A stretch of 63,892 nucleotides of DNA, counting the filler, from Asterionella formosa (taxonomy: Eukaryota): NCBI GenBank assembly GCA_002256025.1. It is 15 parts of 15 records of this genome, joined end to end, with 100 filler letters (N's around TTAATTAATTAA, not from the genome) between each part and the next. Parts side by side here need not be neighbours in the genome. Positions count along the whole stretch, not along the records: positions 52,249 to 53,617 come from NKIB01002796.1; positions 53,718 to 55,085 come from NKIB01002798.1; positions 55,186 to 56,553 come from NKIB01002799.1; positions 56,654 to 58,021 come from NKIB01002800.1; positions 58,122 to 59,492 come from NKIB01002801.1; positions 59,593 to 60,959 come from NKIB01002803.1; 9 more parts are not named here. The stretch is one strand, 5' to 3'. The translations under genes were made by a program, and so were the position numbers. The notes beneath the pieces were generated by a model, which worked only from the letters and a program-made list of their open reading frames with translations, did not search any database and was not told the DNA's origin. This document shows positions 6,205 through 60,086 of the stretch, one piece after another. Positions within the stretch are counted from its first letter, which is position 1. Every line of letters starts with the position of its first letter.

Positions 6205-7011
6205 CTCCCTCCTTCCGAAAATAGTTGCATCGATTATCGGAACCTTCACGGATTTTGTAGACTACATACCAATTTTCTACATGAGGGTCGACTTACTCGA
6301 AAATATGAGATTTTAATGTGTTACATAGACATGATCATAAAGTCTGTTTTTGTAATTAAATATTTATCATCTAAATAAATTGATCGAAAGCAATTTGACA
6401 TATATACATACATTGGGTACATGTATAGCTATATCAAACAAGAATGCTAATACATTGATTCTTCAAGTATAATTTTATCCACTTCCATCATCATTATTGG
6501 TATCGTCAAAATGAATGTTGACAATCACAACGTGCCCATTCTTGATGATCAGATCTTCGGCTTGATGGCAAACAATGACGGGCACAGCTGTGCCCATCAT
6601 CGTTGTTGTGGATCAACTGTGAAAGTTGGATCAGTGTTTTTTATCAAAACGAGCCGACCATCAATTTCGTCGTCTCCATCAGGTCCTCTTTTGAGGTTCC
6701 GTAAACCATAATGCAACACAAGCTGACGGTCTTCTGGTGATAGATCCCTTCTCGTATGCTTGTTGAGAAGAGGTGGTGGGGTCGGGCATCTTGATTTTGC
6801 TCGAGAGGAGCAAAATTAGAAATCGAAAAAGCCCAAAAACGTTTTTCAAATGTAGTTGCCAATTTTTATTTTTCTATATATTATCTGTGCATGATTCTGT
6901 AGCTTAGTGCAAGGCGCACTATAGGGCAATTGAGACAGAGAATATCGTAGTAGTCGAAATGGCCCTGTAGAAATTTAAAAAATCGATGCAACTATTTTCG
7001 GACGGAGGGAG
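6205..7011. mobile_element. Non-autonomous Tc1/mariner (Stowaway-like) element, 807 bp
   Basis: 31-bp TIRs at 6205-6235 and 6981-7011 (CTCCCTCC[T/G]TCCGAAAATAGTTGCATCGATT, 30/31 identical). TA on the right flank, TG on the left. Carries a short Cys/His ORF fragment at 6511-6711. Confidence 0.85.
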
Positions 7012-7517
7012 TACCAAGGTACCGGTAGTTATGAACAATTATGTACATCATGTTGAAGGACATGCTATGATTGTTTAGCTACATATTGTTCTGATATGAT
7101 GTGCATTTGGGTAATTATGGAGTTGACATCATATGAGCTCTTTTTTGGGGTAATTGTAAACCTCATCGAAATCATCAGATTTGGAAGTAAACACAGATGT
7201 GTTCTCAACCGATTCAATAAGTCGTTTCAAATTCTTCCTCGATTTTAAAACGTCTTCAAATGTAAACCCAAATAGACTATCCTTGGCTCTTTTTCAGAAC
7301 CATTTTTGATGCAAGGTTCCATTCGAATCTTTTTTCATGTTGATATGGGGATACGGTATGGTCAAAAATTGCAACAAAACGGAGTTCCATTACCACCGGT
7401 ATCCGTGATGGGAAGGCAACAGCAGCATCAGCAGCTGCATACAGCAGTCAGCCAGGTATTTGCATTCAGTATACTGGTAAATCATGCATGATGTTTATTG
7501 CATGTTCTTGGTACTGA

Positions 7518-44803: not shown

Positions 44804-45084
44804 NNNNNNNNNNNNNNNNNNNNNNNNNNNNNNNNNNNNNNNNNNNNTTAATTAATTAANNNNNNNNNNNNNNNNNNNNNNNNNNNNNNNNNNNNNNNNN
44901 NNNAGATACTTCTGTCAGGAGATGTTGTGAGGTAGGAGCACTTGAGTACACTTGTGGTGAATCAATGTAATTGAGTTCTGTTGTTGACACGACTCTGAAA
45001 ACATGTAATTTTGCGTTGAATCATTGTTTTCTATGTATATATATATTTTACTTACGCACAGCGTTTGATCTCAGGCATGCGGTA

Positions 45085-45179
45085 CAGGCAAGTTGCGATG
45101 AATTTGCTTAAACTAAAAGTTTAGCTATCTTTATCCCATATTAATTGTTAGTTTAAGCAAAATTACCGCAACTTGCAGG
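45085..45179. mobile_element. ~95-bp foldback MITE flanked by TA
   Basis: 29-bp inverted arms at 45088-45116 and 45148-45176 (GCAAGTTGCG..TTTGCTTAAACTAA, 3 mismatches). TA at 45083-84 and 45180-81. Confidence 0.65.
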
Positions 45180-46954
45180 TACCTGGAGTAACGGTACCGG
45201 TATCTACAGAAGGGTCGGGCCTAATGCGAACTGTAAGATACATACAGAATAGATATGTAGTAGGTAGTACAGTACCGGTAGTATCCTTCCCATTTTTACA
45301 ATGATGTGCGGCTCTCGTAACATCTCTACCAGTATACCGATGTATGTATTGTGCATTCCTACATACCGGTAGTGGCCCTCATCACAATTTTAACAAACGA
45401 GCGCAGCATGTCGTTCATCCAATCAGAGCAACATGTAACAGGAGGGCGTTCATTCAGAAAATTAGCCCATATCACGATCTGGATTTATGAATGGGAAAGC
45501 TTCAGTCCGTATGTAGTGGTATATATCCAAACAAATAAAAATGGTTGTAGTTTTTTTATCTTTCACCATGTTACTGGCACTCCCACTGCCCAATAACAGT
45601 TGAATTGAATGTTCAAGTTTCTCTGGGGCCATTTAGACTCCTACAATTTCTCTCACTCAATTGCCCTATTGAGCAGCTTGCTTTAGTGCATCTCAAGCAG
45701 CATACAGATGCCTGGCCCCCCATTTTTGCTGCCACCACCTCTTCTCAACAAATTATGAAAAACGATCAAACACCAGAAGAACATCGATTTGTCTTTGACT
45801 ATGGTTTATGCAATTTCAAAGAAGGACTGCCTGCTGATGGAGAAGACAAAATTGATGGTCAGATCATTTTTGTGCATGGAACCATTAAATATTTGGCATG
45901 CAGTTTCAAAATTGATAAAATAACTAAAAACAATATTTTTTGAACTGCGCGCTTGAATTCTATTATAATGGCTGCAAATTCTTGACTGGCCATCCTCTAA
46001 AATACAACCATGAAAAAATGATTGCAGCAATTAGAGAGATCTAATATTGCAAACATATGACTCATTGTAAATTAGCTGCTCTTGCACACTTTCAAAGTCA
46101 ACAAATTTTTGGATTGCCAAAGATAATAGAGATAATGTAATATAAGACCGCACACCAGAAGTGCAGTCAAGCCAAGAACGCTTGTGGAGGAGGATAAGAT
46201 TAGTCATTTTATGTATTGTGTTCACCATTTACAATTTAACCAGAATCCAGATCAAGAATATCCTTCCCCTGANNNNNNNNNNNNNNNNNNNNNNNNNNNN
46301 NNNNNNNNNNNNNNNNTTAATTAATTAANNNNNNNNNNNNNNNNNNNNNNNNNNNNNNNNNNNNNNNNNNNNAGGGATATGGAGTGAGCCGGGCAAGTTC
46401 GGCTTGAAGATGGGCCACCCCCGAGCTGTGGGAGTGGGAGGAAGGGCCGGAAAGGGCAGACCAGGCAGAGGCATGGTCAGAAAGGTGTAGATAGGATGCC
46501 GGGGAAGCCGAAGGCAGAGCCCGGGGTGAAATATGGGGTGGTGGGTAGGGACTCATAGAATACGGGGCTGAATAGCGAAGAGGAGGCGCAGACGTGCGGG
46601 GGTCCATAGCGAACTCGGATGATGAGGGCGGGACAAAATGCGGAAGTTGAGCATTAGTGGAGAACTGGTGATGGCAGGTAGGGTTAGGGTTCTGGTTAGG
46701 GTTAAGCGGTGCCACCAAAAGTTCACCATGGGGATGGGGAAATAATGCACCAGCATTGTGTTGTTGCCATGCAGCCAATTCGCCACTGAATGCAGCTGCA
46801 TCAGTGTCATTGGCATCATGAGGCGATGGAGATCGCATGATGGAGGGAAGTCTGGTAAGGGATCAGTAACCTGTGTGTGTTGAGAGGGAGAAACGCTTGC
46901 AACGGATGCCAGCGGCAGCTACATTAACAAGGAACTGAGATTCTAAAGTAGTAT

Positions 46955-53543: not shown

Positions 53544-53772
53544 CTATGGGGAAAGATGGAAGTAAGAATTTTTATTTACTCATAAATAGTTACTAACAAA
53601 ATGGTTATTTGTTTTTANNNNNNNNNNNNNNNNNNNNNNNNNNNNNNNNNNNNNNNNNNNNTTAATTAATTAANNNNNNNNNNNNNNNNNNNNNNNNNNN
53701 NNNNNNNNNNNNNNNNNTCACTCTACCTATCCCTATCACTATCCCTCTCCCTCTCTCTTTCCCTATTCCTAT

Positions 53773-53808
53773 CCCTAACCCTAACCCTAACCCTAACCCT
53801 AACCCTAA
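53773..53808 (-). repeat. Interstitial telomere-like (TTAGGG)6
   Basis: (CCCTAA)6 flanked by degenerate CCCTAT/CCCTCT units, ~80 bp downstream of the LRR stop codon. Confidence 0.9.
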
Positions 53809-53887
53809 CCCTTGGCAACTTAAGTAGTCACCCATCGTCGCTTGGATAATAGTCATTGTAGCCCTCACACATACACATACCCTAACC

Positions 53888-55085
53888 CTATACAAAAGCT
53901 GGTGAAGAAACAGGGTTCAAGGAATTGAATGGTGCAGGAAGCGTGCCAGTGAAAGTATTATTGTCCAAATCTAGATAATTGAGACTTGTCAAGAGTCCAA
54001 TCTCTGTGGGAAGTGTGCCAGTGAAAGTATTGTAAGACAAAACTAGATCAGTGAGACTTGTGAAGAGTCCAATCTCTGTGGGAAGTGTGCCAGTGAAAGT
54101 ATTGCCAGAAAAATTTAGATAATTGAGACTTGTCAAGAGTCCAATCTCTGTGGGAAGTGTGCCAGTTAACCGATTAGGACCCAATGATAAGAATGTTAAG
54201 CTTGACAAGAGACCTAGCTCAGTTGGAATTTTTCCAGTTAGATCATTTCCATTTCGATTTTGGTGACCTCCATGTCCAACGTTCAAATGTCCTGTAATCA
54301 TTAAAATATGAAAAATCAATGATTTGCTGTATTCTTTTGCCACAGTTTTTAATCTTCATTTTTTTCATTTACTTACGTAGTTTTGTCAACTGAGGCCAAT
54401 TTGAACTGATATTTCCAGATAATAAAACATTGTCGCCAAAGTCCATAACAACTGTGTCACAACAAAATGTTGTTAGTATTTAATCACACTTTTCTATCAC
54501 AATTGTTATTGCCTGTACTTACAAAGATTGGTCATATTTCCAAAAATGGATGGTAATTCTTCAATGAAGTTAGCTGAGCAGTTGAAGTACTCTTTTATAA
54601 TAATTGGAAAAATGAGAAGTTGTATCAGAAATTATAAATCATCAAAACCTTTATTTTCTGATTTTTTGTCACTCACCTATGTTTGAAAGATGACTGAAGC
54701 TCAAAGGTAAGTTAAAAATTGTATTGTTGCTCAAGTCAATGTGATCTGATTTAAATTACAAAGGCGAAATCAAATAGTTAGTTTGCATAACTTTTTTTTA
54801 AGCAAAAACATGTTTATCGCAATGCACTTACTCATTCTTTCACTTAGAACTGCTACTTCTGGAGGAATGGATCCAACAAGACCTTCACCACTGAGTTGCA
54901 GTGATGTTATAAATGTTCCATTGCAACCAATTCCTTTCCAATCACAAAAGTTGTAGTCGCCATATTCATTTGGTTCTAGCCATTTTTCATAAGTATTTGA
55001 TTGAGACAGAGTACTAAGCCATGTTTTTCCAACTACTTCAAAATAGATTACCGCCAAAACATAGTGTTGGAGCAAGTTGAAATCA
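53888..55085 (-). CDS. Leucine-rich-repeat protein, 5'-partial, variant 1
   Basis: Exons 55085-54832, 54745-54677, 54591-54523, 54451-54377 and 54291-53888, all with GT-AG introns. Cap QHYVLAVIYF...CDWKGIGC and plant-type LxLxxNxFTGTLPTEIGLL repeats. Confidence 0.85.
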
Positions 55086-55779
55086 NNNNNNNNNNNNNNN
55101 NNNNNNNNNNNNNNNNNNNNNNNNNNNNNTTAATTAATTAANNNNNNNNNNNNNNNNNNNNNNNNNNNNNNNNNNNNNNNNNNNNATAGACAATAGTATG
55201 TACTTATTTAGCTTAGATTTTGCGTTTTGCGGCTATATCAAACACTATATACAGTGTGGTTGTTCTGAGCGGCGGCTGGAGAACGAATACTGCATATCAT
55301 CTCATCTGCTCACCAGCCTTGACCATGACAAAAATAACAAATGTTTTGACACATATATCAGGCCTCAATAAAGACATATGCGATACAATCGACTATTCCT
55401 CGCTCCCTCTGAGAACAACACGGTAAAGCTATTAAGTACAGCACATGCACCGGAAACAATGCAAGATCTCACGCACCATACTAAACCACGTCCCCTGAAT
55501 TGTCGTCGTCCTTTTCTACCTTCTTGTCATCTCTTTTGTATTGTTTGATGTCTCACAAAATCAGACCGGTTGATTGTTGGTATTAGGCAGCCGCTTGGAG
55601 GTGAAGGCATTGTACCTGTAGTCCCTCATGTCGCAAACACACCTTGACACCTCCTAACGGTAAGTGACGACCAGCAGACCTGATATTGAAGCACATCTTT
55701 GTCAGCCAGAAACTCACTCCATTTTTCTATGTCCATACCTCCCCTTTCTTGCGGAAAGAAGCAAAAATGATAATACGAG

Positions 55780-56553
55780 GAATGGGTTGACTTGAAAGAA
55801 ACTGGCGTATTGAAAGTCCAAGAAATATCCTGCAAAGCGGACATCGGCAATCAAACAAGGAACCTATTGGCGAAGGTTTCAAGCAGCGCTACAATCAACT
55901 GAGCAGCAAGTACAGGGAAGCAACAAACAAGTATTTCAATGGACAGATGCAGTGATGGAGGTGTGGTGGCCAATTGCAATTTGCATTTGGATTGTTTTGA
56001 GATCATTTTTGGAAATGCCATTGCATGCAAATTGCCTAGTAGCAAATGGCCTAAATCTAATCATTAATTCCTTTAGTTTGTTATCATTATACCTGTTCAA
56101 TGACTTAGTTCACCAACACAACCAAAAGCACCACCATTATTGATCAGCTGGTTGAGTTAGCATTGCTAGTGATTTTCTAGTGCTATACTAGTCTAGTATT
56201 GTGCTCAAGGGGTATCTCAATGGCCGATTTTTTCCAAAATAGGAAAGGAGAAACATGAACTGCTATAGGCATTTGTTGAGACGAGGCTCAACTGAAATCT
56301 CATTGAAACTCGAAGTTTTACCTATAGGAAAAACAGGCTAAAACAACTCGAAAACAAACAAACATTTGACTACCACAGTGAAGGTTGCATGTGGTCAGTC
56401 GGATTATTTCCGCCATTTTGGATCATTTCCGCCGCCTTTTCCGATTTTATGATATTCCGTGTGTACATGATATATGAAATAAGGCGAAGGATGGGCCACA
56501 ACGTTTTTTCTACTGGCTGAAGTCTATGTACAAATTCTGCGTAGTTTCAGGGT
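55780..56553 (+). mobile_element. Possible piggyBac 3' remnant
   Basis: Fragments WRIESP and CNLHLDCFEII weakly resemble a piggyBac C-terminal Cys domain. The contig ends ...CAGGGT, compatible with a GGG-TTAA right end. Confidence 0.3.
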
Positions 56554-56653
56554 NNNNNNNNNNNNNNNNNNNNNNNNNNNNNNNNNNNNNNNNNNNNTTA
56601 ATTAATTAANNNNNNNNNNNNNNNNNNNNNNNNNNNNNNNNNNNNNNNNNNNN

Positions 56654-57851
56654 TGATTTCAACTTACTCCAACGCTATGTTTTGGCGGTAATCTATTTTG
56701 AAGCATTTGGAAAAACATGGCTTAGTACTCTGTCTCAATCAAATACTTATGAAAAATGGCTAGAACCAAATGAATATGGCAACTACAACTTTTGTGATTG
56801 GAAAGGAATTGGTTGCAATGGAACATTTATAACATCACTGCAACTCAGTGGTGAAGGTCTTGTTGGATCCATTCCTCCAGAAGTAGCAGTTCTAAGTGAA
56901 AGAATGAGTAAGTGCATTGCGATAAACATGTTTTGCTTTAAAAAAAAGTTATGCAAACTAACTATTTGATTTCGCCTTTGTAATTTAAATCAGATCACAT
57001 TGACTTGAGCAACAATACAATTTTTAACTTACCTCTGAGCTTCAGTCATCTTTCAAACATAGGTGAGTGACAAAAAAAAAGAAAATAAAGGTTTTGATGA
57101 TTTTTAATTTCTGATACAACTTCTCATTTTTCCAATTATTATAAAAGAGTACTTAAACTGCTCAGCTAACTTCATTGAAGAATTACCATCCATTTTTGGA
57201 AATATGACCAATCTTTGTAAGTACAGGCAATAACAATTGTGATAGAAAAGTGTGATTAAATACTAACAACATTTTGTTGTGACACAGTTGTTATGGACTT
57301 TGGCGACAATGTTTTATTATCTGGAAATATCAGTTCAAATTGGCCTCAGTTGACAAAACTACGTAAGTAAATGAAAAAATTGAAGAGTAAAAACTGTGGC
57401 AAAAGAATACAGCAAATCATTGATTTTTCATATTTTAATGATTACAGGACATTTGAACGTTGGACATGGAGGTCACCAAAATCGAAATGGACATGATCTA
57501 ACTGGAAAAATTCCAACTGAGCTAGGACTCTTGTCAAGCTTAACATTCTTATCATTGGGTCCTAATCGGTTAACTGGCACACTTCCCACAGAGATTGGAC
57601 TCTTGACAAGTCTCACTGATCTAGGTTTGTATTCCAATACTTTCACTGGCACACTTCCCACAGAGATTGGACTCTTGACAAATCTCACTGATCAAAGTTT
57701 GTATGCCAATACTTTCACTGGCACACTTCCCACAGAGATTGGACTCTTGACAAGTCTCATTTTTCTAGATTTGGACAATAATACTTTCACTGGCACGCTT
57801 CCTGCACCATTCAATTCCTTGAACCCTGTTTCTTCACCAGCTTTTGTATAG
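56654..57851 (+). CDS. Leucine-rich-repeat protein, 5'-partial, variant 2
   Basis: Exons 56654-56907, 56994-57062, 57148-57216, 57288-57362 and 57448-57851 with phase-1 GT-AG introns. Near-identical to the reverse complement of 53888-55085. Confidence 0.85.
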
Positions 57852-57930
57852 GGTTAGGGTATGTGTATGTGTGAGGGCTACAATGACTATTATCCAAGCG
57901 ACGATGGGTGACTACTTAAGTTGCCAAGGG

Positions 57931-57966
57931 TTAGGGTTAGGGTTAGGGTTAGGGTTAGGGTTAGGG
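57931..57966 (+). repeat. Interstitial telomere-like (TTAGGG)6
   Basis: Six perfect units, then degenerate ATAGGG/AGAGGG units up to the contig end. Confidence 0.9.
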
Positions 57967-60086
57967 ATAGGAATAGGGAAAGAGAGAGGGAGAGGGATAG
58001 TGATAGGGATAGGTAGAGTGANNNNNNNNNNNNNNNNNNNNNNNNNNNNNNNNNNNNNNNNNNNNTTAATTAATTAANNNNNNNNNNNNNNNNNNNNNNN
58101 NNNNNNNNNNNNNNNNNNNNNGCTCCCAAGCAGTGTGCAGTCCAAATGCTATGATGGAATCCGCAAGCGAGACCATGATGAGTCACTTTTCTACTCAGTC
58201 ATTTTCGAGTACCAGGTATTAATAATACATTTAGCTATCATAATGATGGTTTCTATAGTACATAGTAATTCCAGCATGGCTGCATTTGATCATTTCAACT
58301 ACAACGCCGATTACTGGTACAGCCGCCACAAAAAAAACGCTAGTCAAATATGATCACCCAAAATAATTATTTGGGTGGCCCAATATGACGAATTTAGCTA
58401 CGTACATAATTTAAGGGTATGACATCACAAAAAAATATGACGCATCACACAATATATATGGACGGAGTGAACTAAAATAGTTTTAACAACTTCCATAATT
58501 ATTTTAGAAACCCACATAATTTTTGGGGGCAACTGACAATATTTTCTTGCGACACAAAAAACAATTTGTTCAGTAATAATCTCTATAATACGGTACTTTT
58601 CTCGACAATTCGCAACATTTCCGTTCACAAATATTCTTCACTCTGACTATCATTAATTTTGTTAGTTTGCTCCCATTTTATCTTTACTTTGATCACATTA
58701 ATACCTCAAGGTTAAACAAATATATATGCTAGTCAAACAAATAATTATGTGTAACCAATCAACGTTTAAATTAAATTCTAGCTACAATCGCAAAATCAAT
58801 CAAATTAATCGCTTCGCTATATAGTTTATATTGATACTTTCTATAGAACGTGATTCTCAAACCAATAAGACAAGCAATGGATGTTCATTCTTGCAGCTGG
58901 ATGCTGTAACTTAACGCAAGATTGCTTGGCTACTCATAGTACTTGCAGGAATCCATGTTTACTACCGGTAGATCAATTCATAGCAAATGAGCCGGCTGCT
59001 CATTCTCATTGCTCGGATTGATTGTCTTTTGTAGAAAGAGGGAAACATTTGCAGAGTGAGTTGATGAGAAAAAAAGTTACGAAGCCATGATTTCGTTTCT
59101 GCTGTGCTCCTTACCATGTTCCCCAATGGCCAACCCAGCCCTGATCATATGATTGTCTGCAACCAGTGAACAACAATCATAGATTGAGTTCATGAACAAA
59201 CAATCGTTACAAAGGCATCATTTTCGTTGTGCTTAGCTACCATGCCGCAGCCTGAATCCCAACAAATCTCTCGCTCAACAGATTGATTGTCTGTAGACAA
59301 AGAACAGCGTTTGCAGAGTAAGTTCGTGATCAACAAGCAAGTAACAAGCACACAATCAAGCCCTTTTTATAATTCATTACAAATAGCAATTCATGCGCTA
59401 ACAATTCCGAACAAAGACGAAGGAGAATAGTAGGAGAGGAGATCCGCCCACAACAAGCAACAGCAAACAGTATCAAGCAACAAAAGGCAAGANNNNNNNN
59501 NNNNNNNNNNNNNNNNNNNNNNNNNNNNNNNNNNNNTTAATTAATTAANNNNNNNNNNNNNNNNNNNNNNNNNNNNNNNNNNNNNNNNNNNNCTTGCCCT
59601 TAAATAAACACTTGCCCTTAAATAAACAATACAAGAAAGGATAAGGATACCTCCTATGTAAGGGTTTAGTAACAGGACGTACATTACAATAGCACGCCAT
59701 ATAGGCAACAGATAACAGTATGATGGGAGAGGAATTGCACATCGAATATATTGGAGTAATATATATGTACATATAACCGCTTGCCATATATACATATTCA
59801 AACCAGATATATATAGACTCATAAAAAGCCAACACTTTTCGACTAAAGCAATATACCCACGCTTTAACCGCGAGCCATAAATATATTGATACCATTTATA
59901 GTTAAAAACACGTTTTCCACTGAACAAATGTACCCACGCCTTAACTGCAAGCCATGTATATATATCCACACCATGTATATTATATAATCAGAAAGAGCAG
60001 CACTTTTTTACTGAAACGCACTACCGGTAGTGGCGCTATGGCTCTGTAACCGTAACCCTAACCCAAAATTACCTAAAGCTGTGTAC

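What the first reader, a model, noticed from the sequence alone, without database searches (positions are those of the whole stretch)
53718..58021. Two LRR variants diverge mainly at exposed xxLxLxx residues
Seen: two 1368-bp contigs with identical end points (probably an assembly bubble, so alleles or young paralogs) and nearly identical introns. In the last three 72-bp repeats I count 18 nucleotide differences giving 14 amino-acid changes and none synonymous (NYLNFSG/TDLVLSY/NYLDLDN vs TDLGLYS/TDQSLYA/IFLDLDN). The NTFTGTL framework is almost invariant. The codons at the variable x positions all end in T or C. Inference: diversifying selection and/or repeat shuffling on a ligand-binding face, as in immune or self-recognition receptors. 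This is a candidate variable-receptor system in a diatom.
Basis: partly seen in the sequence, partly recalled or inferred. Interest (0 to 1): 0.72.

Follow-up and report, generated by a model that had tools for sequence, protein, structure and literature searches.

The report
Diatom shuffled LRR surface-receptor family
Two short DNA pieces from a diatom are variants of one gene in a large family of predicted cell-surface repeat proteins whose scaffold stays almost constant while five predicted binding-face positions change in nearly every repeat, which likely makes them fast-evolving recognition proteins, possibly against fungal parasites.

Summary
Observation confirmed: 18 nucleotide and 14 amino-acid differences, none synonymous, in three 72-bp repeats, against 17 in the other 1,152 bases. 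Both variants splice to open frames. They are not a simple two-allele bubble: at least four array haplotypes share the same 3' flank. They belong to a family of type II membrane LRR receptor-like genes without kinase (95 cap-domain matches, a lower bound). Across 250 unique repeat units, omega is about 3-4 at the five xxLxLxx codons and 0.57 in the framework; repeat halves recombine between loci. The T/C codon endings are simply inherited; no DGR-like mutagenesis was found. New here: the stop codon lies in telomeric repeats joined to the end of a telomere-attached retroelement; 5 of 18 telomere-bearing contigs carry family sequence, three with a chitin-binding-like tail. RNA shows close paralogs, not these two copies, spliced. 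It works like fungal HNWD and Ectocarpus repeat receptors (concerted evolution plus diversifying selection). Ligand and somatic variation are untested. The scan noted the same pattern before in other (cytosolic) LRR families of this genome.

The parts
56655..56907 (+). Variant B: 3' part of the large first exon, encoding the N-terminal cap of the LRR domain (the 5' part with cytosolic region, membrane anchor and P/T stalk is off the contig; seen whole in paralog C12762)
56908..56993 (+). Variant B intron 1 (GT..AG, 86 bp)
   Evidence: joint 56907-56994 in RNA contigs X17 and X15
56994..57062 (+). Variant B exon, one diverged LRR (69 bp)
57063..57147 (+). Variant B intron 2 (GT..AG, 85 bp)
   Evidence: joint in X17 and X15
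57148..57216 (+). Variant B exon, one diverged LRR (69 bp)
57217..57287 (+). Variant B intron 3 (GT..AG, 71 bp)
   Evidence: RNA joint with paralog letters
57288..57362 (+). Variant B exon, one diverged LRR (75 bp)
57363..57447 (+). Variant B intron 4 (GT..AG, 85 bp)
   Evidence: zero X17 depth at 57385-57427
57448..57851 (+). Variant B last exon with the intronless LRR array and stop codon
57588..57803 (+). Variant B: three homogenised 72-bp LRR units with variable xxLxLxx codons
57849..57925 (-). Telomeric repeats (supplying the LRR gene's TAG stop) plus about 60 bp of the 3' end of a telomere-attached reverse-transcriptase element (its frame is on the minus strand)
57926..58013 (+). (TTAGGG)6 followed by degenerate hexamers
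54832..55084 (-). Variant A: cap exon (partial)
54677..54745 (-). Variant A single-LRR exon
54523..54591 (-). Variant A single-LRR exon
54377..54451 (-). Variant A single-LRR exon
53888..54291 (-). Variant A last exon with LRR array and stop codon
53936..54151 (-). Variant A: three homogenised 72-bp LRR units
53814..53890 (+). Variant A: telomeric repeats plus retroelement 3' end, identical to B's
53726..53813 (-). Variant A: telomeric and degenerate hexamer tract
55186..56553 (.). Unrelated small contig between the two variants, bounded by artificial linkers; not part of the feature

Best explanation
The two contigs are two of at least four versions of a young diatom gene for a predicted membrane-anchored leucine-rich-repeat protein, in a large family whose repeats likely swap pieces between genes and are likely selected for new binding faces, most likely to recognise non-self such as parasites. 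Mechanism: (shown) the last exon holds 72-bp units whose framework is nearly the same within and between genes while five codons differ; (shown statistically) these codons have omega about 3-4 and recombine as modules; (inferred) gene conversion and unequal exchange in the germ line or during ordinary mitotic growth move unit halves between loci, so A and B differ by replaced segments rather than by 18 new point mutations; (predicted) the protein is a type II membrane protein with the LRR horseshoe outside and no kinase, so it would signal through a partner or its long cytosolic N-terminus; (inferred) a chromosome-end position, shown for some members and suggested for this one by a telomere/retroelement junction that truncates its C-terminus, would favour ectopic exchange; (speculative) the ligands are parasite surface molecules, since three members carry a chitin-binding-like tail.
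For: Family pN 0.51 at x codons against pS 0.26 in the same codons (ratio 1.96, bootstrap 1.75-2.16) and pS 0.17 over all codons (2.9, 2.7-3.3); framework pN/pS 0.51. Codon-model profile: omega 3-4, lnL -1994 against -2029 at omega 1; framework 0.565. 190 distinct faces among 250 units; association between sites falls with distance (permutation p 0.0015 and 0.0025); all four combinations of linked two-codon haplotypes occur, also with a synonymous marker. Framework distance 0.097 within and 0.106 between loci. 27 of the 28 codons that distinguish A and B occur at the same position in other units, including the framework oddities; 4 of 4 units of the two most divergent pairs are closer to a unit elsewhere (1-4 differences) than to their positional partner (8). 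An independently assembled 9-unit array shows the same contrast (0.46 against 0.085) and two metagenome units are identical to units of this assembly. One hydrophobic segment after basic residues, then a P/T stalk; an N-glycosylation sequon in 68 of 250 units. Model: strands at the x positions, best matches plant receptor ectodomains MIK2, HSL1, FLS2. Ser+Tyr+Asp are 68% of residues at four x positions. Chitin_bind_1 matches (E 1.5e-5, 2e-5, below Pfam's cut-off) on two members and a homologous tail on a third. 5 of 18 telomere-bearing contigs carry family sequence. Spliced RNA of the subfamily in two studies.
Against: No ligand, infection response or localisation data. RNA contigs carry paralog letters at 57481, 57492, 57500 in all their depth, so A and B themselves are not shown transcribed. 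A and B have only four array units, a C-terminus cut by telomeric repeats, and B has Gln at a core leucine: they may be decaying copies. Units were collected by likeness to B's framework, which inflates the framework/face contrast; recombination breaks the tree assumption of the omega estimate. Many members lie on long contigs without telomeres, and in C14284 sequence continues beyond the telomeric tract. Diatom LRR receptor-like genes with known expression patterns are tied to mating, not defence (10.1101/2024.04.15.589526, PMC5485032). The hevein-like tail is absent from A and B, and diatoms have other chitin-binding genes (28 further matches).
Confidence: 0.55

Rival explanations
1. Same diversification mechanism, but the proteins serve mate, self or colony recognition.
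For: MRM2-type LRR receptor-like proteins with N-terminal intracellular part and external LRR are mating-type biased in pennate diatoms (10.1101/2024.04.15.589526, passages); two LRR genes regulated in sex have Ka/Ks above 1 in Pseudo-nitzschia (PMC5485032, passages); fungal het-d/het-e use the same regime for allorecognition (PMC1805685, abstract).
Against: MRM2 is a small family (11 genes in 8 species) with a ~50-residue N-terminus; this family has 95 or more members and a ~300-residue N-terminus; it is transcribed in lake metatranscriptomes and culture RNA, stage unknown; chitin-binding-like tails point to an outside ligand.
Confidence: 0.17
2. A programmed somatic system: within one clone, subtelomeric arrays are rewritten from orphan units at high rate, giving cell-to-cell variable receptors as in lamprey VLRs.
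For: At least four array haplotypes on one identical 218-bp flank in one assembly; orphan units behind stop codons; modules only 3-6 bases apart assort almost freely; telomere association.
Against: Four haplotypes need only two duplicated loci; no dedicated enzyme, signal sequence or incomplete germ-line gene was seen; only contigs were available, and the 39,523 contigs laid from run X1 are expected from errors on a high-copy repeat.
Confidence: 0.1
3. A variable surface coat under escape selection: the proteins are attachment sites for parasites or viruses and vary to avoid being bound, like subtelomeric antigen families.
For: Predicted surface exposure on a P/T stalk, large family, telomere enrichment.
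Against: Change is confined to the canonical binding face and to a Tyr/Ser/Asp-rich alphabet, which fits a binder better than a decoy; the convex side is under purifying selection.
Confidence: 0.1
4. Artefact or neutral repeat turnover: collapsed repeats mis-assembled, or relaxed selection on dying copies.
For: Fragmented assembly; identical contig ends; several loci are rearranged or frameshifted; the 51-base constant stretch between variable windows would allow wrong joins of whole units.
Against: Graph assembly cannot recombine sites inside a 21-base variable window; independent assemblies hold identical and like units; another study's isolate run X11 shows other letters at the same x codons; omega above 1 at x codons and below 1 in the framework is not neutral; only 3 of 253 unique core units hold a stop.
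Confidence: 0.05
5. Diversity-generating-retroelement-like adenine mutagenesis explains codons that vary at bases 1-2 and end in T or C.
For: 30 of 30 x codons in A and B end in T/C; third bases kept in 214-237 of 250 units at four x codons; a reverse-transcriptase fragment adjoins the gene.
Against: Silent adenines of the framework are not variable (232-247 of 250 kept); third-base conservation at x codons equals that of framework four-fold sites (196-247 of 250); no AAY template unit in the genome with up to 1 mismatch; the retroelement is a telomere-attached type.
Confidence: 0.02

Closest known systems
Fungal NLR repeats with high internal conservation (Podospora HNWD het-d/het-e; PMC1805685 abstract, PMC4986451 passages)
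   Same: Repeat units homogenised within and between loci, a few interaction-surface codons under diversifying selection, variable repeat number
   Different: LRR instead of WD40/TPR/ANK; predicted extracellular on a type II membrane anchor; no NACHT/NB-ARC or effector domain; no RIP
Ectocarpus LRR-ROCO and LRR-kinase candidate receptors (PMC3341825, passages)
   Same: Stramenopile, 24-residue LRRs, positive selection on the concave face, shuffling, somatic variation proposed but not shown
   Different: There each LRR is its own exon and exons are shuffled; here the variable units form an intronless array and only the invariant LRRs are single exons; no GTPase or kinase; membrane-anchored
Diatom plant-specific-type LRR receptor-like proteins, including MRM2 (10.1101/2024.04.15.589526, passages; Schulze et al. 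2015 seen only as a citation there)
   Same: NxLt/sGxIP-like repeat, N-terminal intracellular part, one membrane segment, external LRR, no kinase; Atlas neighbours are diatom LRR clusters
   Different: Near-identical DNA framework with hypervariable face, about 100 or more genes, long N-terminus, telomere link, chitin-binding-like tails
Plant LRR receptor-like proteins and kinases (MIK2, FLS2, HSL1 ectodomains; Cf-type RLPs recalled)
   Same: Same LRR subtype and fold; variable xxLxLxx face
   Different: Plant receptors are type I with signal peptide; repeats within a gene are not homogenised to this degree
Lamprey variable lymphocyte receptors (recalled; mentioned in PMC3341825)
   Same: 24-residue LRR modules with variable concave face, exchange of module pieces, stalk
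   Different: No evidence here of somatic assembly, incomplete germ-line gene or deaminase
Endonuclease-deficient Penelope-like elements, Athena/Coprina (PMC8557442, passages), for the 3' flank
   Same: RT fragment with YIDD motif, attached to terminal TTAGGG tracts, reverse-complement telomeric repeats at its 3' end
   Different: Only truncated copies seen; clade not tested; only ~60 bp lie in the window

Membership tests
Diatom PS-type LRR receptor-like proteins | 24-residue plant-specific LRR motif | tested here: met
   Pfam LRR_1 E 1e-8; unit consensus columns; fold matches to plant ectodomains
Diatom PS-type LRR receptor-like proteins | Single membrane segment N-terminal of the LRR, no kinase | tested here: met
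   Paralog C12762 (95% identical over the shared part) has one hydrophobic segment at residues 303-321; A and B end in a stop after the array. The anchor itself is off contigs A and B.
Diatom PS-type LRR receptor-like proteins | Diatom taxonomic range | tested here: met
   Atlas top clusters 0.91-0.96, commonest phylum Bacillariophyta
MRM2 family | Short (~50 aa) intracellular N-terminus and 1-2 genes per genome | tested here: not met
   ~300-residue N-terminus in C12762; 95 cap-domain matches
MRM2 family | Mating-type-biased expression; placement in MRM2 clade | not tested
   No staged RNA or MRM2 sequences used
High-internal-conservation repeat receptors (works-like) | Repeats over 85% identical and homogenised across loci | tested here: met
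   TRF 88-89% matches; framework distance 0.097 within, 0.106 between loci
High-internal-conservation repeat receptors (works-like) | Diversifying selection at a few interaction-surface codons | tested here: met
   not tested with recombination-aware site models
Fungal/plant/animal NLRs | NACHT or NB-ARC domain | tested here: not met
   No such Pfam match in the first exon, cap, array or a longer homolog
Ectocarpus ROCO-type exon-shuffled LRRs | One exon per variable LRR, Roc-COR domain | tested here: not met
   Variable units are intronless; up to 17 in one open frame
VLR-like somatic receptors | Cell-to-cell assembly from cassettes | not testable with these tools
   Only assembled contigs of runs were served
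Diversity-generating retroelements | Adenine-specific mutagenesis from a template repeat | tested here: not met
   Silent adenines invariant; no template
Endonuclease-deficient Penelope-like elements (3' flank) | RT attached to telomeric repeats at chromosome ends | tested here: inconclusive
   Four copies at 98-100% abut terminal TTAGGG tracts; Pfam gave no RT match; Atlas 0.96 to unnamed diatom and rotifer clusters; no phylogeny, no full-length copy

The most novel reading that the evidence does not exclude
The diatom keeps a partly subtelomeric repertoire of cell-surface LRR receptors whose binding faces are re-assorted by short-tract gene conversion fast enough to differ among cells of one clone, with chitin-binding members aimed at fungal parasites: a heritable, clonally selected variable-receptor system in a unicellular alga.
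Probability: 0.12. Interest if true: 0.9.

Novelty: new variant of a known kind. Interest (0 to 1): 0.58.

Why it matters
Strain-specific parasite resistance and hypersensitive responses are reported for freshwater diatoms, but the recognition step is described as open (PMC10643281, passages). This family gives concrete candidate receptors with five defined variable positions, so host-parasite matching becomes testable by genotyping arrays against infection outcome. It also extends the concerted-evolution-plus-selection regime of fungal and brown-algal intracellular receptors to predicted surface receptors of a unicellular alga. Five searches of the held library listed no paper describing it in diatoms; subscription papers such as Schulze et al. 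2015 were not readable.

Tried and rejected
DGR-type mutagenesis: rejected. Two-allele bubble: rejected, four haplotypes. Read depth for allele versus paralog: not possible, all 24 listed runs are contigs; summed contig depth is no copy number and the 39,523 and 15,261 contigs laid from X1 and X17 are not evidence of somatic diversity. Partitioned codon model crashed; the optimiser left omega at its start value 1.000 for the x codons, so a fixed-value profile was used. Incompatibility scores did not rise with distance because distant sites are low-diversity framework; only the mutual-information decay and four-haplotype tests are used. In-frame versus out-of-frame gaps between units (14 of 22, 12 gaps of terminal-unit or long type left out) is weak because several 'gaps' are merely diverged units; not used. 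Homolog search of the first exon gave 6 unnamed proteins among 4072 candidates. No earlier scan finding matched the array protein by sequence. The original paper on telomeric Penelope-like elements was not held. No complex prediction was run: no candidate partner.
Full report
1. Observation. The window is a string of small contigs joined by linkers. Contig A (53718-55085, minus) and contig B (56654-58021, plus) are 1368 bp each and differ at 35 positions without gaps. Eighteen differences lie in the last three 72-bp repeats (8, 8, 2) and give 14 amino-acid changes, none synonymous; the other 1152 bases differ at 17 positions (Fisher p 7e-7). Fourteen of the 18 fall in the five x codons of xxLxLxx (p 8e-8). 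Ten of the 14 amino-acid changes are at x positions, four in the framework.

2. Gene anatomy. With four GT..AG introns both variants give an open frame of 289 codons: cap region, three single-LRR exons of 69, 69 and 75 bp, then a last exon with an intronless array. RNA contigs from two studies join across introns 1-3 and run X17 has zero depth in three intron bins. Those RNA contigs carry other letters at 57481, 57492 and 57500 in all their depth, as a close paralog does, so the subfamily is spliced but A and B themselves are not shown transcribed; contigs drop rare variants, so this is not absence. The 5' part is off the contigs but is whole in paralog C12762 (95% identical over B's first 860 bases): about 300 low-complexity residues, basic residues, one hydrophobic segment (303-321), a Pro/Thr stalk and the cap. 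That predicts a type II membrane protein with the LRRs outside; 68 of 250 units hold an N-glycosylation sequon. No kinase or nucleotide-binding domain was found. Atlas neighbours are diatom LRR clusters (0.91-0.96); the runs that hold the stretch are mostly lake and river samples. A model of B's array (pLDDT 79.5) has strands at residues 40-42, 64-66 and 88-90, the x positions, and matches plant receptor ectodomains best; side-chain exposure was not computed and rests on the known LRR layout.

3. Allele or paralog. Five contigs share the 218-bp 3' flank (four at 100%, one at 98.6%) and carry four different arrays; others share the 5' part at 92-98%. So at least two loci exist if the cell is diploid, and the identical contig ends are graph branch points. 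Depth could not be used: all 24 listed runs are contigs.

4. Family-wide test. The cap domain has 95 matches in the genome and a framework pattern 172 (100 listed); both are lower bounds. From 63 loci (72 fetched at that point, 9 dropped as duplicates) I extracted 398 units; 279 have at most 6 framework mismatches to B's unit, 253 are unique, 250 lack a stop and were analysed. This set is chosen by likeness to B and includes allelic copies. Pairwise pN at the x codons is 0.51, pS 0.26 in the same codons and 0.17 overall (ratios 1.96 and 2.9, bootstrap 1.75-2.16 and 2.7-3.3); framework pN/pS is 0.51. A codon model on a fixed tree peaks at omega 3-4 (lnL -1994 against -2029 at 1) and gives 0.565 for the framework; recombination makes these approximate. 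There are 190 distinct faces in 250 units, and Ser, Tyr and Asp make 68% of residues at four x positions; that such an alphabet is typical of antibody and VLR binding sites is recalled, not from a call.

5. Shuffling. Adjacent x codons are linked, but the pair before LxL, the middle codon and the pair after assort almost freely; association falls with distance (p 0.0015 for 150 units, 0.0025 for 250). All four combinations of two-codon haplotypes occur (one of them in a single locus), and also with a synonymous marker. The framework is as alike between loci (0.106) as within (0.097). Of the 28 codons that distinguish A from B, 27 occur at the same position in other units, including the Gln at a core leucine (7 other units) and a Phe-Ser-Gly triplet (2 other units); units 1 and 2 of each variant are 1-4 bases from a unit elsewhere but 8 from their partner, though a pool of 390 makes close neighbours likely anyway. 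A and B therefore most likely differ by replaced segments, and 18:0 reflects the pool rather than 18 selected point mutations at this locus.

6. Artefact and DGR checks. Wrong joins of whole units are possible, but not mixing within a 21-base window. A scan of metagenome contigs found 3 stretches with 14 units: two identical to units of this assembly, and a 9-unit array with 0.46 difference at x codons against 0.085 in the framework (the pattern required framework likeness for some of them). Run X11 from another study shows other letters at the same codons. The T/C endings are inherited: third bases are kept in 214-237 of 250 units at four x codons, like framework four-fold sites (196-247); silent adenines are not variable, and no template was found.

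7. Telomere link. The stop codon of A and B lies in telomeric repeats; paralogs C3711 and C3545 continue the protein at that point. Next come about 60 bp matching the end of a 1.1-kb element that abuts terminal TTAGGG tracts in four contigs at 98-100%, then six TTAGGG. The element holds a truncated frame with a YIDD motif; Pfam gave no match, the Atlas unnamed diatom and rotifer clusters at 0.96; its layout fits endonuclease-deficient Penelope-like elements (PMC8557442, passages). Of 18 contigs with eight or more perfect TTAGGG (17 at a contig end), 5 carry family sequence in the 69.6 kb held: binomial p 2e-4 if 500 contigs hold the family, 0.01 at the most generous 1202; no size-matched control was run, many members lie on long internal contigs, and in C14284 sequence goes on past the tract. 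Three of the five end in a cysteine-rich tail matching Chitin_bind_1 just under its cut-off (two scanned, E 1.5e-5 and 2e-5; third by homology).

8. Reading. Shown: a real, young, multi-copy LRR gene in a family with homogenised framework, omega above 1 on the predicted binding face and recombination between units. Inferred: gene conversion and unequal exchange, helped by chromosome-end position, feed selection for new binding faces. Speculative: the ligands are parasites; chytrid infection of freshwater diatoms is strain-specific and its recognition step open (PMC10643281, passages). Mate or self recognition is the main rival. Somatic rewriting is not excluded and not shown. A and B themselves may be truncated, decaying members.

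9. Known kin and novelty. It works like fungal repeats with high internal conservation (PMC1805685 abstract; PMC4986451 passages) and like Ectocarpus LRR receptors (PMC3341825 passages), but is no NLR and is not exon-shuffled. Diatom LRR expansions are known (PMC7335047 passages), as is this topology. Five searches listed no description of such hypervariable arrays in diatoms; supplements and subscription papers were not seen. The scan's own notes record the same pattern for cytosolic LRR/armadillo families of this genome and gave me the fungal comparison; none matched this array by sequence. Verdict: new variant of a known kind, interest 0.58.

Noticed in passing
window 4328-60029 (25 sites, e.g. 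53262, 53410, 58963, 60022): The palindrome TACCGGTA occurs 25 times against 0.34 expected; four control 8-mers occur 0-1 times. An orphan LRR unit in C14284 has CCGGTA inserted after CTA, suggesting the motif can arise by insertion at TA.
   Followed up: partly
L074:1201-2394 (G000:C15319); also C2710, C3952, C12993: Telomere-attached, 5'-truncated reverse-transcriptase element, 98-100% identical at four chromosome ends, with older copies elsewhere; likely an endonuclease-deficient Penelope-like element.
   Followed up: partly
L035:929-1201 (G000:C3711): A paralog's LRR frame runs in frame into a Pro/Thr-rich piece of that retroelement and then directly into telomeric repeats.
   Followed up: partly
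L096:4152-4319, L055:3500-3670, L112 (G000:C12993, C9463, C6062): LRR-array genes with a C-terminal hevein-like chitin-binding motif, all three on telomere-ended contigs.
   Followed up: partly
L004, L005, L021, L051, L057, L065, L072: A shortened terminal unit with stop is followed about 100 bases later by an orphan LRR unit outside the coding frame; possible donor reservoir or debris.
   Followed up: no
L034 (G000:C3545): One open frame holds two LRR arrays separated by Pro/Thr linkers and a small cysteine motif, a different architecture using the same units.
   Followed up: no
L067 (G000:C14284), L006 (G000:C15089): Family genes in rearranged or inverted pieces within one short contig; real rearrangement or mis-assembly not decided.
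   Followed up: no
window 44904-46272 and 6646-7016: A small contig shares two 75%-identical stretches with the first large contig.
   Followed up: no
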